A stretch of 39,701 bases of DNA from Candidatus Micrarchaeia archaeon (GTDB taxonomy: Archaea > Micrarchaeota > Micrarchaeia > Micrarchaeales > CABMGC01), in the NCBI GenBank assembly GCA_049964835.1, contig JBMFWW010000003.1:18470-58170 (forward strand), in the 5' to 3' direction. Below are positions 1-27,573 of this stretch, piece by piece. Both the position numbers and the translations under genes were made by a program. Positions within the stretch are counted from its first letter, which is position 1. Every line of letters begins with the position of its first letter. The notes below the pieces were generated by a model that saw nothing but the letters and a program-made list of their open reading frames with translations, had not been told where the DNA came from and did not search any database.

Positions 1-627
1 ATTAATTTCTATATCTTCTATTAGTTGTGAAGCTAATATTATACCTACCGAGTATTTTCTTCCCTCTCTTATTATAGTTTCTATTCCAGAATTATTAAAG
101 ATCATCTTCCATGCTTCATCAATTATTATGAAGAATTTTTTATTTTTATTTACACCCCTAGTTCTCATGAATAATACTAAAGATGATAGAATCTCTTTAC
201 CCGCTTCTATCTTCTTTTTTTCATTTAATGAATCAAGAGAGGCATAAAACAGTTTATTTAGCTTATCCTTATCCGCTTCTATTATCGATTCGTATGAATA
301 TTTTTTGGCCATTACAAAATCTGCAAAGACCTTATACTCACCTGTAAAATCAATTAGTAGTATGATAGAATCTATAAATGCATAAAGTTTAAGCATTAGA
401 TTTTTTACCATAAATGTTTTACCGCTGCCAGTCATACCTACAACAAAGATATGTGGATTCATTAAATACTCAAAATCTAGAAAAAATGGTTTTGATAAAT
501 TAGAGGAAGATCCAAGATATATGCCTGAAGACGATTTTGAGTATATGATCTCAGATTTTTCTTCTGATTCTGATGGTATTACTATCAAATTAGACAGATT
601 TACACTTCCGAGTACCTTTCCTTTCAT
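1..627 (-). CDS. VirB4/CedB/HerA-family P-loop ATPase (3' end outside the window)
   Basis: Not in the ORF track; translated by hand from ATG at 627: MKGKVLGS...GIYLG...PFFLD..LMNPHIFVVGMTGSGKT (Walker A)...LIDFTGEY...FFIIIDEAW (Walker B)...REGRKY...LASQ. The frame is open to the window edge. Confidence 0.9.
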   Translation of the reverse strand, partial: MKGKVLGSVNLSNLIVIPSESEEKSEIIYSKSSSGIYLGSSSNLSKPFFLDFEYLMNPHIFVVGMTGSGKTFMVKNLMLKLYAFIDSIILLIDFTGEYKVFADFVMAKKYSYESIIEADKDKLNKLFYASLDSLNEKKKIEAGKEILSSLVLFMRTRGVNKNKKFFIIIDEAWKMIFNNSGIETIIREGRKYSVGIILASQLIEDIEIN

Positions 628-631
628 TTAA

Positions 632-1351
632 TCACTTGAATAGAGAAAGAAGCGTTTCTCCGCTTAATACTTCATAGTCTAACTTTAACGCGGCAGAAAA
701 AGAATCTGCTACGCGATACAACGTTTTTAATGATTGTGATGATGCTTCAGATTCAGAGTCTGAAGAGCCGAATGCCTTTATCAATAATAGAACATCATAC
801 GCTTTTCCAGATAAGCGAATGTTCTCTATCTCTCCGGTTATTATATCAATTTCTCTTCTTAATGCACTTATTTTATCATATTTACCATCCTTTATTTTGG
901 TTAGCTGTATTTCTTTCATCTTTTTCTTTGTTTCCAAAGGTTCTATTATTCTCTTTTTATCTATCTCTGAACAAAAAATAGAAAATTCAAATGGTTCGTG
1001 TATGCTCTCTATTAAAGATTTTATCGATTCTGATGAAATATTAGCTTGCCCATTCTGCCTAATTGAAGCAACAGACACTCCTTTATAAAAATCGTTATCT
1101 TTTTTAACTACAGATAAGAGATTTTGGCTGAGAACGTAGTTGTTTGCTATTTCTATTATCATTGATTTTTTAATTAGTAAATTATTTATTATATGACCAG
1201 AATGAAGATATAAAATTGAAAGTAAAAGAAATAATGAAGAAATTATTATAATATATAAATAACCGGTAAATAAGCTTATTAATAGAAAAATTATGCTTGT
1301 GGCGTATAGGCCATAAAAGTATAATTTTTTATTTAAATCGCTTTCATCCAT
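632..1351 (-). CDS. Membrane-anchored coiled-coil protein, possible detached N-terminal/accessory part of the VirB4-like ATPase
   Basis: Two N-terminal TM helices and a charged coiled-coil (KISALRREIDIITGEIENI). Stop is 4 bp before the ATPase ATG. ATG 1351 follows GTGA (ORF track starts at GTG 1360). Confidence 0.7.
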   Translation of the reverse strand: MDESDLNKKLYFYGLYATSIIFLLISLFTGYLYIIIISSLFLLLSILYLHSGHIINNLLIKKSMIIEIANNYVLSQNLLSVVKKDNDFYKGVSVASIRQNGQANISSESIKSLIESIHEPFEFSIFCSEIDKKRIIEPLETKKKMKEIQLTKIKDGKYDKISALRREIDIITGEIENIRLSGKAYDVLLLIKAFGSSDSESEASSQSLKTLYRVADSFSAALKLDYEVLSGETLLSLFK

Positions 1352-1359
1352 TCCTATCA

Positions 1360-2415
1360 CTATAGTATATCAAATTTTCCAAAAAATGCTTCCGAACCCA
1401 AAATTGAGGATAGTTCTCTTATTGAAATTCCAGTTAAAATAAGACTAAAAATAGGCAGAATAAATGTATATAGTATTAGATAAGCGATAATACCAAAAAT
1501 TGTATTTAATAAGTTAGTTATTGAATTTACTAGTGAGGTAACGCCTCCAGTTATTGCATTTAGTATTACGTTTGTATTTGTGTAATTACTGTTTTGTGCT
1601 TCTTGACGTGAAGATAGTAATGTGTTTTGTAAACTTGAAGTTGATAATGTAATTTCTGATAAAGAGGTAGAATTTAGTGTGCTAGTATATGAAGATGCCA
1701 TGCTAGCATTTAAAACGTATGACAATGGAAGTACTACATACAAACCGATTGCAACTGCCATTAAGAAACCGCCTAGTTTTCTAGTAGGATAAAATGCTCT
1801 TAGTATTATTCCACTAGGTAATATTATAGTAAGGGCCGAGAACGCTATGAATAGAAGTAGCGAAGACTGTACAAGAGCGCTTATCGCTAGAGTACTTAAT
1901 ATTCTTAATATATACTGTATCTGACTTATTATTGGATTTACTATAGAGGATAAAGAAATTGTAACTATTACCAGATCTATTTTTGTTGAGCCTATAATTC
2001 CAAGACCAGTATTAACCGATACTAAACCAATAATTAACCCAGTAATAGTTGATAATACAGAAAGGTGTTGAGATCCATCAAAAGTATATGGGACTGTGCC
2101 TGTAAGATAGTTATTTGCAAGACAAATCGCGGGATTTTGTGCAAGTATTGAACTACAACTTATAGTAGTATTTTTTGTTAAAGTAAGCTGATTTATTAGA
2201 ACCCCTAATGCGCCACTACTTGAAAAAAGAAGGAATATACTACCAACTATTATTCCATTAAATATTGACTCGTATAACTCATTTTTGCCAAATTCTTTAA
2301 GTCTTTTTTCACTTAGCGCGTATCCAAGACCTAATGAAATCCCACTTATTGATAGCATTATTGCTATTAGATATATGACTATAGTATAATTATAAAAATT
2401 AAATCCGAAAGACAA
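1360..2415 (-). CDS. CedA/VirB6-like polytopic membrane protein
   Basis: About 6-7 hydrophobic segments. LGYAL..KRLKEFGKNELYE and GIILRAFYPTRKLGGFLMAVAIGLYVVLP resemble CedA-type segments from memory. TTG start after GGTG; in an operon with the ATPase. Confidence 0.65.
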   Translation of the reverse strand: MSFGFNFYNYTIVIYLIAIMLSISGISLGLGYALSEKRLKEFGKNELYESIFNGIIVGSIFLLFSSSGALGVLINQLTLTKNTTISCSSILAQNPAICLANNYLTGTVPYTFDGSQHLSVLSTITGLIIGLVSVNTGLGIIGSTKIDLVIVTISLSSIVNPIISQIQYILRILSTLAISALVQSSLLLFIAFSALTIILPSGIILRAFYPTRKLGGFLMAVAIGLYVVLPLSYVLNASMASSYTSTLNSTSLSEITLSTSSLQNTLLSSRQEAQNSNYTNTNVILNAITGGVTSLVNSITNLLNTIFGIIAYLILYTFILPIFSLILTGISIRELSSILGSEAFFGKFDIL

Positions 2416-2426
2416 TATTACACCTT

Positions 2427-2828
2427 CTAACCAGAACTTGCATTTATTATTGAATTTACAGTAGAGTTAGTCAATAGATGTGTTGAAGCTACAGCAAGAC
2501 CAGTAGATGCTACGGACAAAACAGCAACTATTATTGCGCCTATTATTATGTCTATTGATGCGCTATGGAATGTTGCTCGCTTATATGTAGGAAAAAGCTG
2601 ACCGATCGCATAGAATATTCCTGCAAGTATGAAAAGTACTGCGCTTAGAGTAGGTCCTATTTGTGCAAGAATATTTTGCACACTGCCTAAAGTAGAAACT
2701 ATGTCAAATGCATAATTTATACTTGAAGCAGATATAGTTCTACTAGCAAATAGAAAAACAAAAACTAGTAGAGGTATTTTTATAATACCAAATTTTCCCA
2801 CAAAATCACCGATATATCTTTTATTCAT
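2427..2828 (-). CDS. TrbC/VirB2/CedA1-like pilin
   Basis: 133 aa: signal-like N-terminus, then two hydrophobic helices (IGPTLSAVLFILAGIFYAIG; IIIGAIIVAVLSVAS) joined by a short basic loop. First gene of the operon. Confidence 0.6.
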   Translation of the reverse strand: MNKRYIGDFVGKFGIIKIPLLVFVFLFASRTISASSINYAFDIVSTLGSVQNILAQIGPTLSAVLFILAGIFYAIGQLFPTYKRATFHSASIDIIIGAIIVAVLSVASTGLAVASTHLLTNSTVNSIINASSG

Positions 2829-2975
2829 ATATATAACCTTATATCTATGTATATGAATTATTACTTAAATAAATATTTAAATCTTTTGGTAAATATATAA
2901 AATAAGATATTTTCTATAAATAAGGTAAATAGAAAGGAATAAAACATATTGTTCATAATTATATTTGGCGATTGA

Positions 2976-3395
2976 GTGCATAGATATGTAAAAGGAGCAC
3001 GTAGTGAAAGGGAGTTACTTAATATATTTTATAGTAAAGGCTACTCTGTACTTAGAAGTGCAGGATCAGGAGTAAATGCATTAGGGCCAGATATAATAGC
3101 AATTAAGAATAAAGTATGTATAGCAATAGAGTGCAAGGCTTGGGAAAAGAATAGGTTAAGCATTGATAATGATGCTTATCAAAAACTTTTCGAATGGGAA
3201 CAGAATACAAAATTCCCTACATTTATAGCCTGGAGGATGAATAATAAAGGTTGGTTTTTTGTTAAACTTGATGAATTAAAAAAAGGGGAAAAGGATTATA
3301 GTGTAACTAGAATAAAAGCTATTGAAACAAATAGAGTTTTAGACAATATACTAATAGAACTAAGCGAAATAATGTCCTCTACGAAGAGTAATTAA
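2976..3395 (+). CDS. hjc: Archaeal Holliday junction resolvase Hjc
   Basis: KGARSEREL...GYSVLRSAGSG...PDIIA...IECK (PD-(D/E)xK Hjc signature). Confidence 0.92.
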   Translation: MHRYVKGARSERELLNIFYSKGYSVLRSAGSGVNALGPDIIAIKNKVCIAIECKAWEKNRLSIDNDAYQKLFEWEQNTKFPTFIAWRMNNKGWFFVKLDELKKGEKDYSVTRIKAIETNRVLDNILIELSEIMSSTKSN

Positions 3396-4209
3396 GTCCC
3401 AATTTGTTACCGTTTTTTTTAAGCCACATAACTTTTTCTTTATAATCTGGACATGCTTTCGATACATTTGCCCAGAAACTCTTTGAATGACTTGAAAAAG
3501 GTATATGTGAAAGTTCATGTATTATAACATATTTTATAACGTCTTCAGGAGCAAGTAAAAGTTTGAAGCTTAGATATATATTTCGTGTGCGTCTGCCATA
3601 ACTCCCCCATAGAGTATTCTGATTATGTATTGATATATTGTTAAATTCATAATTGTAATGGCTTTTATTTATCTGATTTGCCATTTCCTTTATTTTTGGA
3701 AGAAGAGTTTTTGTAATTCTTTTTTTGAATATTTTCGTAGCTTCCTTTTCTAGGTTAGTTTCAAGAACATTTTTTGAGAGGAATATTTCAATTAAGTTAC
3801 TAGTTATGTGAAGCTTTGACCTATTATTTTGTGACCGTATTAATTTTATATCATAAGATTGACCTAAAAGCGATATCTTTGAATTATCTTTTATAATTAG
3901 AGAGCTATTTTTCATAAGATTGAGTTCTGTCGGATTAATCTGTTCTAACTTTTTAATAAGTTTTGATTTTATCCTCTCAGCCACTTTTATCTTTGCTTTA
4001 TTATTGAGTTTTCTTGGAACTCTTATTATTATAGTATCTTCTTTAAGTCTTGCGGATATGGTATTTCCAATAACTTCTACTAGTAAGGTTTTGAACGCAA
4101 CACCATTTATTAAAACACTGTCGTTTTTATAACTATTAGAGGTGTTGTTAACAGAATCTCTTTGGTAAATGCCAGTTATGTAATCAAGTATGGCTATTAT
4201 TACACCCAT
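3379..4209 (-). CDS. YgjP-like (DUF45) zinc metallopeptidase-fold protein
   Basis: WGS motif, IYLSFKLLLAPEDVIKYVIIHELSH (HExxH), HSKSFW..V...CPDY. Confidence 0.88.
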   Translation of the reverse strand: MGVIIAILDYITGIYQRDSVNNTSNSYKNDSVLINGVAFKTLLVEVIGNTISARLKEDTIIIRVPRKLNNKAKIKVAERIKSKLIKKLEQINPTELNLMKNSSLIIKDNSKISLLGQSYDIKLIRSQNNRSKLHITSNLIEIFLSKNVLETNLEKEATKIFKKRITKTLLPKIKEMANQINKSHYNYEFNNISIHNQNTLWGSYGRRTRNIYLSFKLLLAPEDVIKYVIIHELSHIPFSSHSKSFWANVSKACPDYKEKVMWLKKNGNKLGLNYSS

Positions 4210-4214
4210 TTACA

Positions 4215-4820
4215 TTATGAGAGACTTATTGCTATTGGACATTCTGAGTAATAAGCAGCATTTCCGTATACAGTCATATGATATGCGGTTATTTGAGAAT
4301 AATTTGAGTTGCTATAATTTAGAGATATGCTAGGCTCTGATGCTATATCCTTTTCACAGTTTGTTGCATTTGTATTTACTGGATTTAGAACATGACCTAA
4401 GCCATTAGGAGCGTATGTACAGCTTGTTGCATTTACAACATAAAAATCAATGGTGCTAGCATTTCTTTTGTTAGAAGATACTATAGTATCTATAACACCA
4501 GTAGCGCACTGTGAAATATAAGAATAGGTACTGCTATTTATAAACTGTGAAACTACTGCGACTCTTTGAGCAGAATTGAAATTAGATTTAAATGTTGAAA
4601 AGGATGTTGTATAGTAATTAGAGGTCAGATAATACCAGATTGTGGCTATAATTATTATTATAATAATTACCGCAACCGCTGAAATAAGTACAGACTTTGA
4701 TACATTTCTTTGCTTATCTTTATCCTTTGTTTTTGAGCTTTTTGAATCTGAACTAACCTTCACCGCATTCTCCTCCTTATCTAGAGTATTCTTTTCTGAT
4801 TTTTTTGAAGACTTTGCCAT
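4215..4820 (-). CDS. Single-TM surface protein with a 4-Cys extracellular domain
   Basis: Lys-rich cytoplasmic N-terminus, one TM helix, and an N-x-S/T-rich C-terminal domain similar to the C-terminus of the upstream 703-aa protein. Confidence 0.8.
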   Translation of the reverse strand: MAKSSKKSEKNTLDKEENAVKVSSDSKSSKTKDKDKQRNVSKSVLISAVAVIIIIIIIATIWYYLTSNYYTTSFSTFKSNFNSAQRVAVVSQFINSSTYSYISQCATGVIDTIVSSNKRNASTIDFYVVNATSCTYAPNGLGHVLNPVNTNATNCEKDIASEPSISLNYSNSNYSQITAYHMTVYGNAAYYSECPIAISLS

Positions 4821-4825
4821 TTATA

Positions 4826-6937
4826 TCACTTTATAAAGAATGAACCATAACATGAGTTCATTACTTGATCGCCACCATTTATTGATAATAAAGTACCATA
4901 CATAGAGTAAAGGTTTATTGAAGATGTGTTTGAAGTTGTCAATAATACTACAGGTATGCCTGTTCTTGCAAATGAATTCATACAGTCGCTTACATTTGAT
5001 AGCCCAGGAGTACAGGAGTTTCCTGAAAATTTGTATATCTTAGATATGTAGCCTTCTGATTTTGCAGTATTATTTATCTCTGTGGCACATAATGAAGCAG
5101 AGGTACTATCGGTATTATTTATCACAATAATAAGTGAATGTGAAGAGGATAATGCAGATTTAAATGAGGATAAAGATGAGGTACCATTTGCTGAAGATGC
5201 TATGAAGTAAGTAAGCAATACATATACTAATACAAGTACTATTATCAAGATGAACAATAAGTGCCAGTTCTTTATTGTTTGATTTGATATTCTTATCTTT
5301 TTAGATGATTTTAGTTTTATATACAATAAGAAGATTAAGAGTAGTATTATCAAACCTATTATCAATGAGAATAGTGCGGACAGCAATGGAGCGGATGATA
5401 CTGTTTGTGCATAATTAAGATTTAAAGCACCAGACATTAATGTTACAAATGGACCGTCTATTGCCCTTGATAATGACTGCAAACTAAGATCAGGGCCATT
5501 AACATATGAAATGTTTCCAGATATCTGATTTAAAGATTTGTTTATTGAAGAGGTATTTGAAAGTTGCGAATCTAGCTGTGTGTTTATTTTATTTTCTTCA
5601 AAAGAATAATTAGCTAATTGTACAGAATATGGAGAAGATAATTGCGCACCTATAAGTAAAGCAGTATTATTTTGGGCTTTGCTTAGTATGCTTGAATATG
5701 TTTTATTTAACAAAGTATACATATTATTAACTGTATTTAATTCTGATGAAAGTTTCTTCGAGTAGTTAGTTATATTAAGTGTGAGATAATCTTGCTCTAA
5801 TGTTTTATAATTATTTTCAAGCAGAGTTAATTTTTCAGACAAATTACTATTAGAGATATGAGAGAGTAGCATTTGAGCATTTTCAACGGTTTTATTGTAA
5901 TTTGATAAAGTAGTATTTATTACGCTTTCATAAACAGATGACTTCTGTGATTTTAATTTAGGCACAATATATAGATCTTCATATGATGATACATTCATAG
6001 CCACTTGGTTTATCTTCTCTTGTGTAGGCACCTTTGCATTTATACTATTTAGAACGGCATTTAGATTGCTTAACATTGTATAATTATATGAAAGAAATTC
6101 ACAGTATCCTATTGCATTACAATACCATGGACCAGAACTTGACGAGATATTGAAATTTGCTCCGCCTGCCTGATTACAAAGTGCGAGATCAGAGTTTTGT
6201 GTTGGAGGAAATATGGGATTCTGGTATAAATTTTGTGTAATCTGCGATATATTATTGTATGCCGCAGTAACCATCTGTGCATCTAAATCTATTTTAGAGT
6301 AATTATAAGTAGAAAGATTACTTTCATTAGTATATCTGTAAAAAATGCTAAGGTTATTCTGTAACGCATAGTAAGACTGTTCAAATGACATTATACCTTC
6401 CCCTAATACTCCAGTTGGACCGTTTGTTGCGTATAAGACTTTATTACAAGCAGGTACTAATGCACAAGATTGACAGTAATTAGAAACTGTACATGTTGCA
6501 CGATTTATTCCAGTTTCAACTATACAATCAGATAGTGGCGCGGCTGAGGTCTCCATATATGCAGTTACTCCTTGTTCTAATTGATTATAATTTATCTGCT
6601 TTATAAGAAGCTGAACAGTTTCATTCTTTATTATCTGCGATATTGAAGTAGCATTTAATACAAAGTTGTAGTTACCGGTTATTGAAGTATTTATTAAAAA
6701 ATATGGATTACTTCCTTGATAAACTATTGTGTAATTGTTATTTCCATATGTAACATTTACAAATGAAAATGAAGATATTAAAGAGTTTGAAACATTGTAA
6801 GATTTGAGCAAGGAAACTAGTTGCGTTGAAGATGTAGATGCACCCAAAGAGAAAATAAACATAAGAGAAAATATGAAAATTCCAAGTGGCAATATATTTA
6901 AAGGTCGTGACATTTTATCAATATTCATTAGTAACAA
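4826..6937 (-). CDS. Large secreted/membrane glycoprotein with a Cys cluster and long helical region
   Basis: Signal peptide, Cys cluster (CIVETG..ATCTVSNYCQSCALVPAC), heptad-like helical stretch, two TM helices, C-terminal 4-Cys domain, many sequons. Start may be a downstream ATG. Confidence 0.8.
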   Translation of the reverse strand: MLLMNIDKMSRPLNILPLGIFIFSLMFIFSLGASTSSTQLVSLLKSYNVSNSLISSFSFVNVTYGNNNYTIVYQGSNPYFLINTSITGNYNFVLNATSISQIIKNETVQLLIKQINYNQLEQGVTAYMETSAAPLSDCIVETGINRATCTVSNYCQSCALVPACNKVLYATNGPTGVLGEGIMSFEQSYYALQNNLSIFYRYTNESNLSTYNYSKIDLDAQMVTAAYNNISQITQNLYQNPIFPPTQNSDLALCNQAGGANFNISSSSGPWYCNAIGYCEFLSYNYTMLSNLNAVLNSINAKVPTQEKINQVAMNVSSYEDLYIVPKLKSQKSSVYESVINTTLSNYNKTVENAQMLLSHISNSNLSEKLTLLENNYKTLEQDYLTLNITNYSKKLSSELNTVNNMYTLLNKTYSSILSKAQNNTALLIGAQLSSPYSVQLANYSFEENKINTQLDSQLSNTSSINKSLNQISGNISYVNGPDLSLQSLSRAIDGPFVTLMSGALNLNYAQTVSSAPLLSALFSLIIGLIILLLIFLLYIKLKSSKKIRISNQTIKNWHLLFILIIVLVLVYVLLTYFIASSANGTSSLSSFKSALSSSHSLIIVINNTDSTSASLCATEINNTAKSEGYISKIYKFSGNSCTPGLSNVSDCMNSFARTGIPVVLLTTSNTSSINLYSMYGTLLSINGGDQVMNSCYGSFFIK

Positions 6938-7345: not shown

Positions 7346-10300
7346 TTATGAGGATGCTGCGTCTTGTAACAACTGATTTATGAATGAGTTTCCTGCATTC
7401 ACTGTTTGCTGTGCTGTGTATCCTGCTACTAGTATCTTGTTTCCATACGCTTGCACTATCGTTGAGTTTGGACCGAACGAAGACTGCAATGATGGGTTTG
7501 CATTGAAGATACTTTGTGCTACAGAGTTAACATAGCCGCTTCCTATTACAATCAAATTTGTTGAGTTGTTTGCGTTGCTGTCAAGTACTGCTATAGGTGT
7601 TGTTACTGTATTCAATGGTGAACCAACTACTGCTGATGCTGCTGATGGTACTGCAGTTAGATTTTTCAAGCCTGTTACATTACAGCTCGTTGTTGAGAAC
7701 GAACATGTTGCGTTAACTTTGCCGATTGTTACGTTTGGTATGTTTGTTGCTTGACCTACTGTGTATGGACCATACATCTTTACAGTTGATGCATTTATTG
7801 TATTACCATTTGAAGCTCCAACAAGGAATTCAAGACCATCTACACTCTTTGGTTCGTAGTATGTTATTGATGATGTTCCTATTGATCCTACTTCGCCACC
7901 ACGTTCTGTTCTAAAGCCTTGTACTGCTTTTGTCAAAACATTCTGTGAGCTTTGGTACTCAACTGCATTGTTGTTTCCATTCGTTTCGTTCAACCAATAC
8001 AATGGTGCTGTTGATGTAACGGATGAGCTGTTTGTCAAACCAACGATTATATTTGCGTTAGGTGTTGAGCTTGAGCCCACTGTTATCTCTGGCATAGTAT
8101 AATTGAAGTACTGTCCTCTTGCTACTGTGTTGCCTGGTGTTGTAGATACTCCTAATGCGAAGTTTACATTGTTCTGTTCGCCTGTGTAGGTTGCGGTATC
8201 AACATTTGGTGCAATGTAATAAGAGTACTGTGGTACCTTGTACAACAACGTTGGAGTGCTTGCTGGATTTAATGTTCCAAGTAGAAGATCGTTTCCTCCT
8301 GAACCAGTTGTTATTGGTGCTAATGTATTTGCAGTTTCATACACAAGAACATTTGCTCCTGGTGCTGGAAGCGCCATTCCCAACTGTATGTTTGTTGCAT
8401 TTGTTAGGTAATCTCCCTGCAACGTCTGTGTATTAAATCCGTTAAATGACACAGAGTATGTTGTGGTTGAGGTTGATCCTACCTGTCTGTAACCTGTTAC
8501 ATATACAGTTAATGGATTGCTTGAAGTAACGTAGTTTCCGTTAACTCCGTTGTTCTGCAATACAAATACCAATCCGCCTGATGGACCTGCAATTAAATTT
8601 GCTATACCTGCTGCGTCTACAGCATTAGATGCAGAGAAGGTGTATGGATTAAGGTTGTAATCCAAAGTTTGCAAGTTAGAGGTTGGTGCTGCATAGCTTG
8701 CTGAATTTATCTGGAATGCTGTTGGTATTGAACTTGAGACTTGGAAGATATTAACAGGTTCTGTAACGGTTGTTTCGTTTATCGCCTTCAATGAATTTGG
8801 TGTTCCTGGTGTAACAACATTAAGTGTGTTAAAGCTATAAACGTTTGGGGTTACTAAACCAGTTTGGCCGTTTGAATAAGTCCATGCACTTCCGCCTCCG
8901 TTGTTTGTTGACAATTGCAAAGCATCATAGTTTGCATTTCCGCTGCTAGGTGCTCCTAGTGAGTCTCCAACGAAGTTAACATTCCACTTTGCAGGATTTG
9001 TTATGTACGTCATACTTGAACCAGGTGTTAAGGTTTGCTGGTTTGACTGGTTTGAGTACAGTATTATGCCCTGAAGTGCTCCGTTATATGAGTTTTCATC
9101 TGCAGTATTCGACTGGTTTGTAGTCCATCTTAATGCAGCTAGCCAGTTGTTTCCATTTGCAGAGTTAAAGTTCTGTCCGCTCTTTACCGTAAAGGTATTT
9201 GAGAAGAGCTGGATCTTTGCCCACTTCTGGTACGCATACAAACCTGGGAAGGTCTGTGATACATCTATGTACAACTTTGTGCCTGATGCATTTACAACTA
9301 CATTGTCATTTGATGCAGGACCTGCTGATGTTACATTTGTTAATACACCATTTTTGTATATTGACAAAGCAGCATCTGACAAACCATTTGAGTTAGGATA
9401 TGACAAGTCAGAAAGTACCACCTTGAATGGACCTGTTGAGATATTCTGTCCTACGTATATAGTTTCTACTGGTGTAGATGACTGTGCAAAGGTTGCACTT
9501 CCTCCTACAATAAAGTTGCTTGATGAAACGCCTGTCATTGCAGGAATTGACATGTTATATACAGTCCAGTTTTCTCCTAATAATGAGAACTGAGCAGATA
9601 TCTTACCTGTTGAGGTTGTGTTCTGTATTGGATTGCCAAATGTTATTTGGTATGCGCCGTTTGTGTCAAGAACAGATAACTGACCAGTGTTCTGATCATA
9701 TACTGGGAACCCTGCTAGCCATAATGACTCTGATTCCTGATATGTTCCTGCGCTTGAAAGCAATCCAGGAACCTGGGAGCTTGTAAGCTGCAAGATATTA
9801 TCAAATCCATTGTTTGTAAACCTTGTGAAGGTTACACCGCCTCCGTTGTTTGTTGCTGAAACTGAGGTTGATGGAGAAATTCCGCTGCTTATTCCAGTAT
9901 ACACTGAAGTAGCTGTAGGTGTGCTTGTTATTGGGTATGGAGATGTTGTTGAGTCTGGATAGTCAAAACTTCCTGATGTACTTAATATACTCTTTGTATT
10001 TTCAAGATTTCCAGAGCTTAGTACGCCAGGGTTCAACACTGATCCTATCAATGCACTGAATGAGTAAGATCCTGCTGGAACTACTAATCCTTTTTCGCCT
10101 AAGTAAACCTGTTGGTTTGACAATGTACAAGTAGGGGTTGTTACTACACAGCTTATTCCACTTCTGCCACTTACGTATGCAGTTATGTTTTGGGTTGTGT
10201 GCGCTAAACTTCCTATTACTGCAGCAATGTTTGCAGCAACTACACCGTCACTAGGTTTTGCCTGGGATCCTACTACAATCTGAACAACTGGTTGTCCTTG

Positions 10301-10411
10301 ATTGTTTATTATAGGTACCGTTCCAAAGTTCACTCCTTGGCTTGCAAATGCAAGACCAACTAACAAACTTGCTGCAACAGCAGCTATTCGCTTCGCTTTT
10401 ATGCTTCTCAT
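7346..10411 (-). CDS. S-layer protein
   Basis: MRSIKAKRIAAVAAS signal, IVVGSQAKPSDGVVAANIA (S-layer N motif) and NLIVIGSGYVNSV...ILVAGYTAQQT (S-layer C motif). Ser/Thr/Asn-rich; GTGA RBS. Confidence 0.9.
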   Translation of the reverse strand: MRSIKAKRIAAVAASLLVGLAFASQGVNFGTVPIINNQGQPVVQIVVGSQAKPSDGVVAANIAAVIGSLAHTTQNITAYVSGRSGISCVVTTPTCTLSNQQVYLGEKGLVVPAGSYSFSALIGSVLNPGVLSSGNLENTKSILSTSGSFDYPDSTTSPYPITSTPTATSVYTGISSGISPSTSVSATNNGGGVTFTRFTNNGFDNILQLTSSQVPGLLSSAGTYQESESLWLAGFPVYDQNTGQLSVLDTNGAYQITFGNPIQNTTSTGKISAQFSLLGENWTVYNMSIPAMTGVSSSNFIVGGSATFAQSSTPVETIYVGQNISTGPFKVVLSDLSYPNSNGLSDAALSIYKNGVLTNVTSAGPASNDNVVVNASGTKLYIDVSQTFPGLYAYQKWAKIQLFSNTFTVKSGQNFNSANGNNWLAALRWTTNQSNTADENSYNGALQGIILYSNQSNQQTLTPGSSMTYITNPAKWNVNFVGDSLGAPSSGNANYDALQLSTNNGGGSAWTYSNGQTGLVTPNVYSFNTLNVVTPGTPNSLKAINETTVTEPVNIFQVSSSIPTAFQINSASYAAPTSNLQTLDYNLNPYTFSASNAVDAAGIANLIAGPSGGLVFVLQNNGVNGNYVTSSNPLTVYVTGYRQVGSTSTTTYSVSFNGFNTQTLQGDYLTNATNIQLGMALPAPGANVLVYETANTLAPITTGSGGNDLLLGTLNPASTPTLLYKVPQYSYYIAPNVDTATYTGEQNNVNFALGVSTTPGNTVARGQYFNYTMPEITVGSSSTPNANIIVGLTNSSSVTSTAPLYWLNETNGNNNAVEYQSSQNVLTKAVQGFRTERGGEVGSIGTSSITYYEPKSVDGLEFLVGASNGNTINASTVKMYGPYTVGQATNIPNVTIGKVNATCSFSTTSCNVTGLKNLTAVPSAASAVVGSPLNTVTTPIAVLDSNANNSTNLIVIGSGYVNSVAQSIFNANPSLQSSFGPNSTIVQAYGNKILVAGYTAQQTVNAGNSFINQLLQDAASS

Positions 10412-27486: not shown

Positions 27487-27573
27487 GCCCCTGTAGCTCA
27501 GTGGTATTTATTTACACTAAAGAGCGTCTGCATGGTAAGCAGAAGGTCGCGAGTCCGATTCTCGCCGGGGGCT
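27487..27573 (+). tRNA. tRNA-Thr(GGT) with a 15-nt D-loop intron (~27506-27520)
   Basis: Acceptor GCCCCTG/CGGGGGC, D stem GCTC/GAGC, anticodon arm TCTGC-ATGGTAA-GCAGA, T arm GCGAG-TCCGATT-CTCGC. BHB-like helix AGTG/CACT with GTA and AAA bulges. TATA-like box near 27454. Confidence 0.9.

What the first reader, a model, noticed from the sequence alone, without database searches (positions are those of the whole stretch)
1..2828. Ced/VirB-like DNA-transfer operon in a DPANN-type chromosome
Seen: four tightly packed co-oriented genes encoding a small two-helix protein with a signal peptide, a 6-7 TM protein, a TM plus coiled-coil protein, and an ATPase with NPH..GxTGSGKT / DFTGEY / IIDEAW / REGRKY / SQ motifs. 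Known: pilin (VirB2/CedA1) + VirB6/CedA + VirB4/CedB is the architecture of the crenarchaeal Ced/Ted DNA-import systems, which are domesticated conjugation machines. Inference: no relaxase, integrase or plasmid gene is visible, so this may be a domesticated channel. In a host-attached ectosymbiont it could move DNA, nucleotides or proteins between symbiont and host, or among symbionts. I know of no characterised DPANN version.
Basis: partly seen in the sequence, partly recalled or inferred. Interest (0 to 1): 0.85.

Follow-up and report, generated by a model that had tools for sequence, protein, structure and literature searches.

The report
Conjugation-like pilus machine in Micrarchaeota
A tiny symbiotic archaeon carries, fixed in its chromosome, a nine-gene operon for a membrane machine related to bacterial conjugation pili and to the DNA-import systems of heat-loving archaea, which may be how these cells exchange DNA or other material with neighbours or hosts.

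Summary
On the minus strand of window 1-2828 lie four tightly packed genes: a signal-peptide pilin-like protein, a 7-TM protein, a 2-TM plus coiled-coil protein, and a HerA/VirB4-class ATPase cut by the window edge.

Five more genes follow outside the window, ending in a second 731-aa ATPase.

The genome is a Micrarchaeota (DPANN) MAG. Genes 1-4 are syntenic in 19 of 19 related loci from three families, often with the same flanking genes. No integrase or relaxase family was found in the genome. This is a vertically inherited chromosomal system, not a mobile element.

- **Pilin:** homology to VirB2 is supported. A family profile hits the R388 TrwL pilus (PDB E 0.0017; hhalign 91.6%), and Pfam TrbC/T4SS_pilin match 15 of 20 orthologues.
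- **ATPases:** their best NCBIfam matches are CedB/CedD, far below cut-off and level with HerA.
- **7-TM protein:** homology to VirB6/CedA was not shown.
- **Gene 3:** it is predicted to bind the ATPase.
- **Second locus:** it repeats the module with six tandem 7-TM paralogues.

Verdict: a new Ced/Ted-like variant of T4SS-derived machines. The substrate is unknown.

The parts
2427..2828 (-). g1: VirB2/TrbC-type pilin-like protein, 133 aa. It has a signal peptide ending in an A-x-A-like SAS, two hydrophobic helices joined by a short basic loop (PTYKRATFH), and a C-terminal tail with N-x-S/T sequons.
   Evidence: - ORF and sequence. Hydrophobic segments.
- Alignment of 20 orthologues. Residues 40-121 average 66% identity.
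- Pfam TrbC and T4SS_pilin each match 15 of 20 orthologues at E<=1. Among the 10 orthologues tabulated with bit scores, 1 is over the T4SS_pilin gathering score. The window's own copy gets only TrbC at E 0.036.
- An 81-sequence family profile hits PDB 8s6h TrwL at E 0.0017. hhalign to R388 TrwL gives 91.6%, E 8.3e-7.
- The AF2 model shows a signal helix plus a helical hairpin, pLDDT 78.
1360..2415 (-). g2: polytopic membrane protein, 351 aa, about 7 TM. It has a conserved Cys pair (C87, C98) and a Ser/Thr/Asn-rich loop. It is the presumed channel or platform subunit, in the role of VirB6/CedA. Homology to those families is not shown.
   Evidence: - ORF. TM segments. Alignment.
- An orthologue is present in 39 of 41 relatives. 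The family is found in 175 of 201 genomes of the phylum.
- AF2 model: pLDDT 72.8, pTM 0.64.
- No Pfam, PDB, Foldseek or R388 TrwI match.
- ESM Atlas lead: a Microcaldota cluster in which 23% of members carry Pfam CedA1 (score 0.90).
632..1360 (-). g3: 242 aa. It has an N-terminal two-helix membrane hairpin and a cytoplasmic alpha/beta plus coiled-coil domain. It is the predicted membrane tether or adaptor of the ATPase g4.
   Evidence: - ORF. TM segments. Alignment.
- Its start codon overlaps the g2 stop by 1 nt.
- Complex prediction used the same-genus orthologues of g4 and of the g3 soluble part. Score 0.83, best of 3 controls 0.00.
- No Pfam, PDB, VirB4 or VirB3 similarity.
1..627 (-). g4: the N-terminal 209 aa of a 370-aa HerA/VirB4-class P-loop ATPase. 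It carries Walker A GMTGSGKT, Walker B IIIDEAW and REGRKY. The gene continues left of the window.
   Evidence: - ORF.
- Pfam: DUF87 in 20 of 20, AAA_10 in 18 of 20, TrwB_AAD_bind in 18 of 20, TraG P-loop in 14 of 20.
- PDB profile: HerA-like 8wiv 7.5e-21, VirB4 C-terminal domain 4ag5 6e-14.
- NCBIfam best names for orthologues are CedB (8e-14) and CedD (9.7e-18), far below cut-offs.
- 268 bases of the gene are withheld as N.
2829..2975 (.). AT-rich 147-bp intergenic region upstream of g1, shared with the divergent hjc gene. It is the presumed promoter region of the operon.
   Evidence: The sequence was read and holds several TATA-like runs. No promoter test was run, so this is inference only.

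Best explanation
The four genes are the first part of a nine-gene, single-strand operon. The operon is fixed in the chromosome of a Micrarchaeota (DPANN) archaeon and inherited vertically. [quoted passage not shown] It is of the same kind as the crenarchaeal Ced and Ted DNA-import systems, but it is a separate lineage.

Proposed working, with the status of each step:

- The VirB2-type pilin g1 is exported by Sec, cleaved, and held in the membrane by its two helices. Topology is shown. Processing is inferred.
- It is polymerised into a short pilus or conduit on a platform made of the 7-TM protein g2 and the small membrane proteins g6-g8. This is inferred.
- The ATPase g4 is held at the membrane by the hairpin protein g3. 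That contact is predicted, not measured.
- g4 powers assembly and/or translocation, in the role of VirB4/CedB. The second, 731-aa HerA-class ATPase g9 acts as a second motor, in the role of CedD/TedD or the Ted-locus HerA-like helicase.

The most likely cargo is DNA taken up from or exchanged with neighbouring cells. I put that specific point at about 40-45%.
For: 1. Pilin homology.
- Pfam TrbC and T4SS_pilin each match 15 of 20 orthologues at E<=1, best E 4.1e-5 and 4.1e-7.
- An 81-sequence family profile has PDB 8s6h TrwL as its only hit below E=1, at E 0.0017.
- hhalign to R388 TrwL gives 91.6%, E 8.3e-7, over 56 columns.
- The topology fits conjugative pilins: signal peptide, two helices, basic loop.

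2. ATPase class.
- Walker motifs are present.
- Best NCBIfam names are CedB, CedD and CD1110 VirB4-like.
- Pfam AAA_10, TraG P-loop and TrwB match.
- g4 and g9 share the core (hhalign 97.8%).

3. Operon architecture.
- Pilin, polytopic protein, membrane adaptor and ATPase sit with overlapping or near-touching genes.
- g1-g4 are present in 19 of 19 loci, g5 in 13 of 19, g9 in 15 of 19.
- g6-, g7- and g8-like small TM ORFs hold the same positions in 15 of 15 loci with g9.

4. The g3-g4 contact.
- Complex prediction score 0.83, best of 3 controls 0.00.
- That mark was reached by 58 of 80 solved complexes and by 2 of 110 mismatched pairs.
- The runs agree in at least 69% of contacts, and the partner's pLDDT is at least 76.
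- My own alignments were used, so the calibration counts hold only roughly.

5. Chromosomal and vertical inheritance.
- A g2 orthologue is in 39 of 41 relatives, with identity falling from 73% to 37% with taxonomic distance.
- All six gene families show the same gradient between families.
- Nre and M24-peptidase flanks recur in 7 and 5 of 19 loci.
- GC content is as in the rest of the window.
- No Phage_integrase, Relaxase or TrwC match was found in the 94%-complete genome.

6. Co-distribution. The same seven families of the phylum sample lack both the pilin and g2.

7. Hints of DNA as cargo.
- Ced and Ted use two HerA/VirB4-class ATPases plus a VirB2-like pilin and a polytopic protein (PMC9905601, PMC11868833, PMC11823120).
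- The DNA-repair gene nre is the convergent neighbour in the window's own locus and in 7 of 19 others. hjc is adjacent in the 3 genomes of the genus that were looked at.
Against: - g2 shows no detectable similarity to VirB6/TrbL. Pfam matched 0 of 20 orthologues. The PDB profile gave nothing better than E 1.6. Foldseek's best hit was E 0.45, with no VirB6 among the 50 rows shown. hhalign to R388 TrwI gave 0.1%.
- The N-terminus of g2 is not significantly like the pilin (hhalign 3%). Only consistent sub-threshold hits were seen.
- g3 shows no similarity to the VirB4 N-terminal domain or to VirB3.
- By PDB and PADLOC profiles the ATPases match HerA-type proteins as well as or better than VirB4. 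NCBIfam scores of 51-73 bits are far below the CedB and CedD cut-offs of 700 and 600.
- The window's own pilin alone is below Pfam thresholds (E 0.036). Foldseek with the pilin model listed no pilin.
- Locus 1 is not universal. By my reading of the rows, pilin orthologues at E<=1e-30 occur in about 76 of 91 sampled genomes of the order. One closed single-contig genome (G210) has none.
- Nothing shows expression, a filament or any cargo. Conserved neighbours in small, syntenic genomes need not be functional partners.
Confidence: 0.6

Rival explanations
1. It is the same T4SS-derived machine, but it does not move DNA. It serves the symbiosis instead, as an adhesion or contact pilus, or as a conduit for proteins, lipids or nucleotides between the Micrarchaeota cell and its host. 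This would parallel the relaxase-less chromosomal T4SS of Patescibacteria.
For: - The organism is a small-genome DPANN archaeon: 0.81 Mb, 94% complete.
- No relaxase was found.
- PMC12102498 (abstract and passages) reports relaxase-less T4SS clusters in most Patescibacteria. It says the system was found essential for epibiotic growth in Saccharimonadia.
- The mature pilin is the most conserved component (66% mean identity).
- A second locus holds six tandem 7-TM paralogues, which suggests an elaborate membrane pore.
Against: - The characterised archaeal relatives (Ced, Ted) import DNA.
- There are two HerA/FtsK-class motors and DNA-repair neighbours nre and hjc.
- No candidate effector or cargo gene is evident in the operon.
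- None of this is decisive.
Confidence: 0.3
2. It is a HerA-type DNA-repair or anti-phage defence module that happens to include membrane proteins, and is not related to conjugation machinery.
For: - The top PDB profile hits of g4 are HerA-like proteins: 8wiv 7.5e-21 and Sulfolobus HerA 4d2i 2.1e-19.
- PADLOC HerA models score 67-70 bits.
- g9 matches HerA_C and DUF87 weakly.
Against: - No NurA was found in the genome.
- None of the six non-ATPase proteins tested matches a PADLOC family.
- The pilin's VirB2 homology stands.
- Conservation is order-wide and syntenic, unlike patchy defence islands.
- CedB and CedD are themselves HerA-clade proteins.
Confidence: 0.05
3. It is a remnant or active part of an integrated conjugative element or plasmid.
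For: - Its components are of conjugative descent.
- PMC5498576 (passages) speculated that genomic islands with many membrane proteins in another Micrarchaeota are 'likely conjugative elements'.
Against: - The same gene order and the same flanks occur across three families.
- Identity tracks taxonomy.
- No integrase or relaxase families were found in the genome.
- GC content is uniform.
- tblastn against 72,556 plasmids gave only 6 weak partial ATPase hits and no pilin hit.
Confidence: 0.03

Closest known systems
Ted system of Thermoproteales (TedC pilin, TedA, TedB, TedD; Beltran et al. 2023, PMC9905601; PMC11823120)
   Same: - It is a chromosomal, relaxase-less cluster.
- It has a VirB2-like pilin with a cleavable Sec-type signal peptide, a neighbouring polytopic membrane protein and a VirB4-class ATPase.
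- A further HerA-like or VirD4-like ATPase sits in the same locus (passages).
   Different: - No sequence-level equivalence was found. The pilin profile did not hit PDB 8DFT.
- Here the ATPase has no N-terminal domain of its own and is paired with a separate 2-TM protein, g3.
- There are extra small membrane proteins (g6-g8) and g5.
- The host phylum is a mesophilic DPANN lineage rather than hyperthermophilic Thermoproteota.
- No ParA or Rad50 was seen in the locus.
Ced system of Sulfolobales, Desulfurococcales and Acidilobales (CedA, CedA1, CedA2, CedB, CedD, CedE)
   Same: - It has a two-helix pilin-like protein, a 6-7 TM protein, and two membrane-associated HerA-clade ATPases. It also has paralogous polytopic proteins, CedA and CedE.
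- The best NCBIfam names for the Micrarchaeota ATPases are CedB and CedD.
   Different: - Scores of 51-73 bits fall far below the equivalog cut-offs of 700 and 600.
- According to the passages read, Ced pilins lack a cleaved signal peptide.
- Here all parts sit in one operon.
- Ced function (UV-induced DNA import) is shown experimentally. Nothing is shown here.
Conjugative VirB/Trw T4SS of plasmid R388 (TrwL pilin, solved pilus 8s6h)
   Same: - Pilin homology is detectable.
- The gene order begins the same way: pilin first, then a small 2-TM protein directly before the ATPase (R388 annotation).
   Different: - There is no relaxase, VirB5, B7-B11 or VirD4 equivalent.
- g2 versus TrwI, and g3 versus TrwK or VirB3, show no similarity.
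- The system is chromosomal and vertically inherited.
Chromosomal T4SS of Patescibacteria/CPR (PMC12102498)
   Same: It is a conjugation-derived system fixed in the chromosomes of ultra-small episymbionts. It is mostly without a relaxase, has VirB2-like pilins nearby, and is present in most genomes of the group (passages).
   Different: - It is bacterial, with a canonical full-length VirB4 of the MPF-FATA class.
- The Micrarchaeota ATPase is short (about 370 aa) and lacks PF03135.
Rickettsiales vir homologue T4SS with tandem VirB6 paralogues (recalled; PMC2653234 seen only as a search listing)
   Same: Tandem multiplication of the polytopic subunit resembles locus 2 of this genome, which has six tandem g2 paralogues.
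   Different: It is bacterial and diderm, with bona fide VirB6. The resemblance is recalled, not tested here.

Membership tests
VirB2/TrbC-type conjugative pilins (Pfam PF04956, PF18895) | A small protein with a signal peptide and two hydrophobic helices joined by a short basic loop | tested here: met
   Hydrophobic segments at 9-27, 61-79 and 94-112. Conserved loop PxxKRAxFH. The AF2 model shows a helix plus a hairpin.
VirB2/TrbC-type conjugative pilins (Pfam PF04956, PF18895) | Sequence-profile match to the family | tested here: met
   Met at family level. TrbC and T4SS_pilin each match 15 of 20 orthologues at E<=1. Of 10 orthologues tabulated with scores, 8 match T4SS_pilin at E<=0.01 and 1 exceeds the gathering score. 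PDB TrwL E 0.0017. hhalign to TrwL 91.6%. The window's own protein alone is sub-threshold (TrbC E 0.036).
VirB2/TrbC-type conjugative pilins (Pfam PF04956, PF18895) | Polymerises into a helical, lipid-containing pilus | not testable with these tools
   This needs filament isolation and cryo-EM.
VirB6/TrbL/CedA/TedA polytopic channel proteins | A polytopic (5-7 TM) protein encoded beside the pilin and ATPase genes | tested here: met
   7 hydrophobic segments. The gene is adjacent to the pilin gene in 19 of 19 loci. Pilin and polytopic genes are also adjacent in other orders of the phylum (coordinates).
VirB6/TrbL/CedA/TedA polytopic channel proteins | Detectable sequence or fold homology to VirB6/TrbL or CedA/TedA | tested here: not met
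   Pfam 0 of 20. TrbL was not found in the genome, though that model does not ring in the S. acidocaldarius control either. PDB profile: none. Foldseek: none at E<=0.001. hhalign to TrwI: 0.1%. CedA and TedA profiles were not available. The only lead is an ESM Atlas neighbour cluster with CedA1 in 23% of members.
VirB6/TrbL/CedA/TedA polytopic channel proteins | An N-terminal region homologous to the cognate pilin, as reported for CedA/CedA1 and VirB6/VirB2 (PMC9905601) | tested here: inconclusive
   hhalign of the pilin against g2 gives 3%. The g2 profile gives many sub-threshold hits (about 5-13 bits) that always map its positions 13-67 to the pilin hairpin.
VirB4/CedB-class ATPases (HerA-FtsK superfamily) | A P-loop core with Walker A, Walker B and an Arg-rich motif, of the HerA/VirB4 type | tested here: met
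   Motifs. DUF87 in 20 of 20 and AAA_10 in 18 of 20. PDB HerA and VirB4 C-terminal domain hits.
VirB4/CedB-class ATPases (HerA-FtsK superfamily) | Closer to VirB4/CedB/CedD than to repair or defence HerA | tested here: inconclusive
   NCBIfam puts CedB or CedD first, with HerA_antiphage within a few bits. PDB and PADLOC favour HerA. hhalign to TrwK gives 31% and to TrwB 43%. No reference phylogeny was possible.
VirB4/CedB-class ATPases (HerA-FtsK superfamily) | A VirB4-type N-terminal domain (PF03135) | tested here: not met
   It was not found in the genome. g4 has only about 45 residues before the P-loop region. g3 shows no similarity to TrwK. PF03135 also fails to ring in the Ced-bearing S. 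acidocaldarius control.
VirB4/CedB-class ATPases (HerA-FtsK superfamily) | Membrane association through its own TM segment or a VirB3-like partner | tested here: met
   Met by prediction only. The g3 soluble domain docks on g4 with score 0.83 against a best control of 0.00. g3 has a 2-TM hairpin.
Ced system sensu stricto (NCBIfam equivalogs CedB NF041017, CedD NF053655) | A score over the curated equivalog cut-off | tested here: not met
   51-73 bits against cut-offs of 700 and 600. This is not a member of Ced proper.
Integrative conjugative element or conjugative plasmid | A relaxase and an integrase, with variable presence or location among relatives | tested here: not met
   PF03432, PF08751 and PF00589 were not found in the genome. 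Synteny and flanks are conserved.
HerA-NurA repair module or HerA defence systems | A partner nuclease or effector (NurA, Sir2, DUF4297 and the like) beside the ATPase | tested here: not met
   NurA was not found in the genome. The six non-ATPase operon proteins tested have no PADLOC match.

The most novel reading that the evidence does not exclude
Micrarchaeota carry an ancient T4SS-derived organelle of their own. It is a lipid-bearing VirB2-type tube, built on a heteromeric pore of many 7-TM paralogues and driven by split, membrane-tethered HerA-class motors. This organelle would be the physical bridge through which these DPANN cells draw DNA or nucleotides, and perhaps lipids, from host or sister cells. 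If so, conjugation machinery was domesticated independently as a 'feeding and mating tube' in ultra-small archaea, parallel to the T4SS of Patescibacteria.
Probability: 0.2. Interest if true: 0.9.

Novelty: new variant of a known kind. Interest (0 to 1): 0.68.

Why it matters
How DPANN archaea obtain DNA, nucleotides and lipids from their hosts is an open question. The cell-cell connections seen by microscopy have no assigned genes.

This operon gives a concrete, conserved candidate that can be tested in the few cultured Micrarchaeota. It would extend the known range of domesticated conjugation machines in archaea beyond Thermoproteota, where Ced and Ted are found. It adds an unusual architecture: an ATPase split from its membrane tether, a second HerA-class motor, and a second locus with six tandem polytopic paralogues.

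Public records name the pilin 'hypothetical protein'. The ATPase carries inconsistent names. The system is therefore invisible to routine annotation.

Tried and rejected
- **Foldseek, g2 model.** No match at E<=0.001 against PDB. The best hits were TTYH2, MsbA and BAR domains.
- **First pilin profile (20 sequences).** It found nothing in PDB. Only the broader 81-sequence profile reached TrwL.
- **g3 as a VirB3 plus VirB4 N-terminal-domain equivalent.** I considered this from a pattern I recalled. No Pfam, PDB or hhalign support came, so I keep only 'membrane tether of the ATPase'.
- **g5 C-terminus as a winged helix.** It looks like one by eye. PDB hits were only at E about 0.09 (GntR-like and similar), so it stays a weak lead.
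- **PF27251 (CedA1).** It is not in the local Pfam copy, so the ESM Atlas lead could not be tested.
- **Reference phylogeny of the ATPases.** It was not possible. No CedB, CedD, TedB or HerA reference sequences could be obtained from the tools.
- **Plasmid relatives.** There were 6 weak partial ATPase hits and no pilin hit.
- **RNA evidence.** The look-up of sequencing runs listed no RNA holder.
- **Supplements.** Supplementary files of the Ced and Ted papers were not readable. These include the HHpred figures and the homologue tables S1. They may list homologues outside Thermoproteota.
- **Rejected readings.** Chance ORFs and a mobile-element origin were considered and rejected (see rivals).

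Full report
**What is in the window**

Window 1-2828 carries four minus-strand ORFs.
- g1, 2427-2828, 133 aa.
- g2, 1360-2415, 351 aa.
- g3, 632-1360, 242 aa.
- g4, 1-627, 209 aa, open at the window edge.

They are separated by 11 nt, a 1-nt overlap and 4 nt. A hydropathy scan gives a signal-peptide-like segment plus two helices in g1, seven segments in g2 and an N-terminal two-helix hairpin in g3.

**Beyond the window**

The window is G000:C3:18470-58170 of an 806-kb, 46-contig genome. The genome is 94% complete and carries an archaeal 16S rRNA gene.

Reading the contig to the left (L001) shows that g4 is 370 aa in full. 268 bases directly beside the window are withheld as N, so its middle third cannot be read here.

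The operon then continues on the same strand with overlaps or gaps of a few bases:
- g5, 230 aa, soluble.
- g6, 176 aa, one N-terminal TM.
- g7, 61 aa, two TM.
- g8, 84 aa, three TM.
- g9, a second ATPase of 731 aa. It has weak Pfam HerA_C and DUF87 matches.

The convergent neighbour of g9 is the DNA-repair gene nre, followed by an M24 peptidase. On the other side, the Holliday-junction resolvase gene hjc is divergent from g1.

**Organism and inheritance**

The best 80 listed of 143 pilin relatives in the species-representative genome collection are nearly all labelled Micrarchaeota, Micrarchaeales or Micrarchaeia. A few are labelled Marsarchaeota, 'uncultured archaeon' or 'archaeon'.

A g2 orthologue occurs in 39 of 41 relatives (26 of 28 genera). 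Identity falls from 73% in the genus to 37-44% in another family of the order.

I fetched 19 of these loci, choosing long contigs from three families and leaving out the unpublished genome. Results:
- g1-g2-g3-g4 are present in the same order in 19 of 19.
- g5 was recognised in 13 of 19.
- g9 was recognised in 15 of 19. Some loci end at contig ends.
- nre was recognised in 7 and the M24 peptidase in 5.

Between g5 and g9, all 15 loci that have g9 hold ORFs of the same three kinds as g6, g7 and g8. Their sequences have diverged too far for BLAST.

All six alignable families show the same identity gradient between families. GC content is the same as in the rest of the window.

Phage_integrase, Relaxase and TrwC were not found anywhere in the genome, although the controls ring.

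The locus is therefore a vertically inherited chromosomal operon, not a mobile element. It is not universal. By my reading, pilin orthologues at E<=1e-30 occur in about 76 of 91 sampled genomes of the order. One closed genome (G210) lacks them.

**The pilin**

The mature part of g1 is the best-conserved protein of the operon, at a mean of 66% identity over residues 40-121. Its conserved pattern is L-x-Q-x-GP-x-LSAVLF-x-AGIFYA-x-GQ, then a basic loop, then a second helix, then a tail with N-x-S/T sequons.

Evidence for VirB2 homology:
- Pfam TrbC/VirB2 and T4SS_pilin each match 15 of 20 orthologues at E<=1.
- Of 10 orthologues tabulated with scores, 8 match T4SS_pilin at E<=0.01 and one passes the gathering score. 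The window's own copy has only TrbC at E 0.036.
- An exhaustive profile search of 1.84 billion representatives found only 87 at E<=0.001, so the family is narrow.
- A profile of 81 of these sequences has the R388 VirB2 pilin TrwL (pilus structure 8s6h) as its only PDB hit below E=1, at E 0.0017.
- hhalign against TrwL taken from the R388 record gives 91.6%, E 8.3e-7.

Foldseek with the AF2 model was uninformative. I regard VirB2 homology as supported.

Three representatives show that the domain is modular. Two carry two pilin domains in one chain, and one carries a pilin-like N-terminus on a 343-aa protein.

**The ATPases**

g4 orthologues match these Pfam families:
- DUF87: 20 of 20.
- AAA_10: 18 of 20.
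- TrwB_AAD_bind: 18 of 20.
- TraG P-loop: 14 of 20.

The family profile hits HerA-like proteins best in PDB, at 7.5e-21. The VirB4 C-terminal domain 4ag5 scores 6e-14.

In NCBIfam the first names are CedB or CedD. HerA_antiphage and VirB4-like CD1110 lie within a few bits, and all are far under the cut-offs. PADLOC HerA models score alike.

g4 and g9 share the core (hhalign 97.8%). No NurA was found in the genome.

According to PMC11868833 (section 9), CedB and CedD were themselves classed in the HerA clade. Closeness to HerA therefore does not argue against a Ced-like role. A proper tree with references could not be made here.

**g2 and g3**

g2 has no match in any of these tests:
- Pfam: 0 of 20.
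- PDB profile.
- Foldseek, with a model of pLDDT 72.8.
- R388 VirB6 by hhalign: 0.1%.

The only positive sign is an ESM Atlas neighbour cluster from the same phylum, with score 0.90. In that cluster 23% of members carry the new Pfam family CedA1. I could not test this. The VirB6/CedA role of g2 therefore rests on position and topology alone.

g3 has no detectable relatives outside the phylum. Its soluble domain is predicted to dock on g4:
- Score 0.83, best of 3 controls 0.00.
- The mark was reached by 58 of 80 solved complexes and by 2 of 110 mismatched pairs.
- At least 69% of contacts are shared between runs, and the partner's pLDDT is at least 76.
- My own alignments were used, so the calibration counts hold only roughly.

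With its two-helix hairpin, g3 would hold the otherwise soluble, N-terminally short ATPase at the membrane. PMC11823120 discusses that role for VirB3 or for the ATPases' own TM segments in Ced.

**A second locus**

The genome has exactly one more copy of the module. It lies directly after the ribosomal-protein operon on contig 1 and holds, in order:
- a 368-aa protein;
- six tandem g2 paralogues;
- two g3 paralogues (hhalign 98.4% and 97.2%);
- a 504-aa ATPase whose best NCBIfam name is CedD;
- a 98-aa protein like the g4 C-terminus;
- a g5 paralogue.

This locus has no pilin.

Across the phylum sample the g2 family is present in 175 of 201 genomes, with up to 11 matches per genome. The pilin family is present in 164 of 201. 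The same seven families lack both. These tallies include the unpublished genomes G038 and G214, and related genomes are not independent.

**Comparison and novelty**

The parts list matches the Ced and Ted DNA-import systems as described in PMC9905601, PMC11868833 and PMC11823120. I saw passages, abstracts and one section of these. The shared parts are:
- a VirB2-type pilin with a cleavable signal peptide;
- an adjacent polytopic protein;
- two HerA/VirB4-class ATPases;
- paralogous polytopic proteins;
- no relaxase.

It also resembles in principle the relaxase-less chromosomal T4SS of Patescibacteria (PMC12102498). It is not a member of Ced proper, because the equivalog cut-offs are missed by an order of magnitude.

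Seven full-text searches found no paper that describes such a system in Micrarchaeota or other DPANN. The nearest are:
- a proposal that VirB4/TraG-like ATPase domains of giant nanohaloarchaeal proteins form part of a T4SS (PMC10266531);
- a general speculation about conjugative islands in one Micrarchaeota (PMC5498576).

Public records call the pilin 'hypothetical protein'.

I class it as a new variant of a known kind.

**Function**

What is shown is homology, architecture and conservation. Nothing is shown about expression, a filament or cargo.

I favour DNA uptake or exchange, at about 40-45%. The reasons are the characterised archaeal relatives, the two HerA-class motors and the nre and hjc neighbours. 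A role as a host-contact conduit for other cargo is nearly as likely, at about 30%.

Noticed in passing
L023 5136-18730 (G000:C1:191135-204729): A second, pilin-less copy of the module sits directly after the ribosomal-protein operon. It holds a 368-aa protein, six tandem 7-TM paralogues of g2, two g3 paralogues, a 504-aa ATPase (best NCBIfam name CedD), a 98-aa protein like the g4 C-terminus, a 109-aa protein and a g5 paralogue.
   Followed up: partly
window 2976-3395 (+) and 3379-4209 (-): The hjc Holliday-junction resolvase gene is divergent from the pilin gene. Its 3' end overlaps a convergent YgjP-like metallopeptidase gene by 17 nt. hjc flanks the operon in the 3 genomes of the genus that were examined, though at the other end in one of them (L035).
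   Followed up: partly
L001 12881-14104 (+): The archaeal DNA-repair gene nre (Nre_N plus Nre_C) is the convergent neighbour of the second ATPase g9. It recurs there in 7 of 19 related loci from two families.
   Followed up: partly
window 4215-4820 (-) and 4826-6937 (-): There are two Asn/Ser/Thr-rich membrane or secreted proteins (201 and 703 aa) with many N-x-S/T sequons and no Pfam family. They are conserved next to the operon in a genome of the same genus (L036). They may be surface proteins.
   Followed up: no
window 7346-10411 (-): A 1021-aa ORF lies in the only stretch of the window with raised GC (0.38-0.41 against about 0.30). It was not identified.
   Followed up: no
window 27487-27573 (+): This is the only Rfam match in the window. 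It is a tRNA spanning 87 nt against a 71-position model, so it may carry an intron or a long arm.
   Followed up: no
P0214, P0224, P0268 (representatives): Two proteins of 278 and 295 aa carry two pilin domains in tandem. A 343-aa protein has a pilin-like N-terminal hairpin followed by a long non-membrane part.
   Followed up: partly
G000:C13:18081-18551 (-): A 156-aa ORF weakly matches the pilin profile (19 bits, E 1.4e-4 over the genome's ORFs). Its context was not examined.
   Followed up: no
L001 18202-18469 (just left of window position 1): 268 bases inside the ATPase gene read N (withheld). Two other genomes of the order (G192, G080) also have withheld bases and lack a strong pilin match.
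   Followed up: no
G001 (C2 and C27): One genome of the genus holds two near-full copies of g2 (69% and 67% identity to the window's) on different contigs. Its contamination estimate is 5%, so this may be strain mixture rather than duplication.
   Followed up: no
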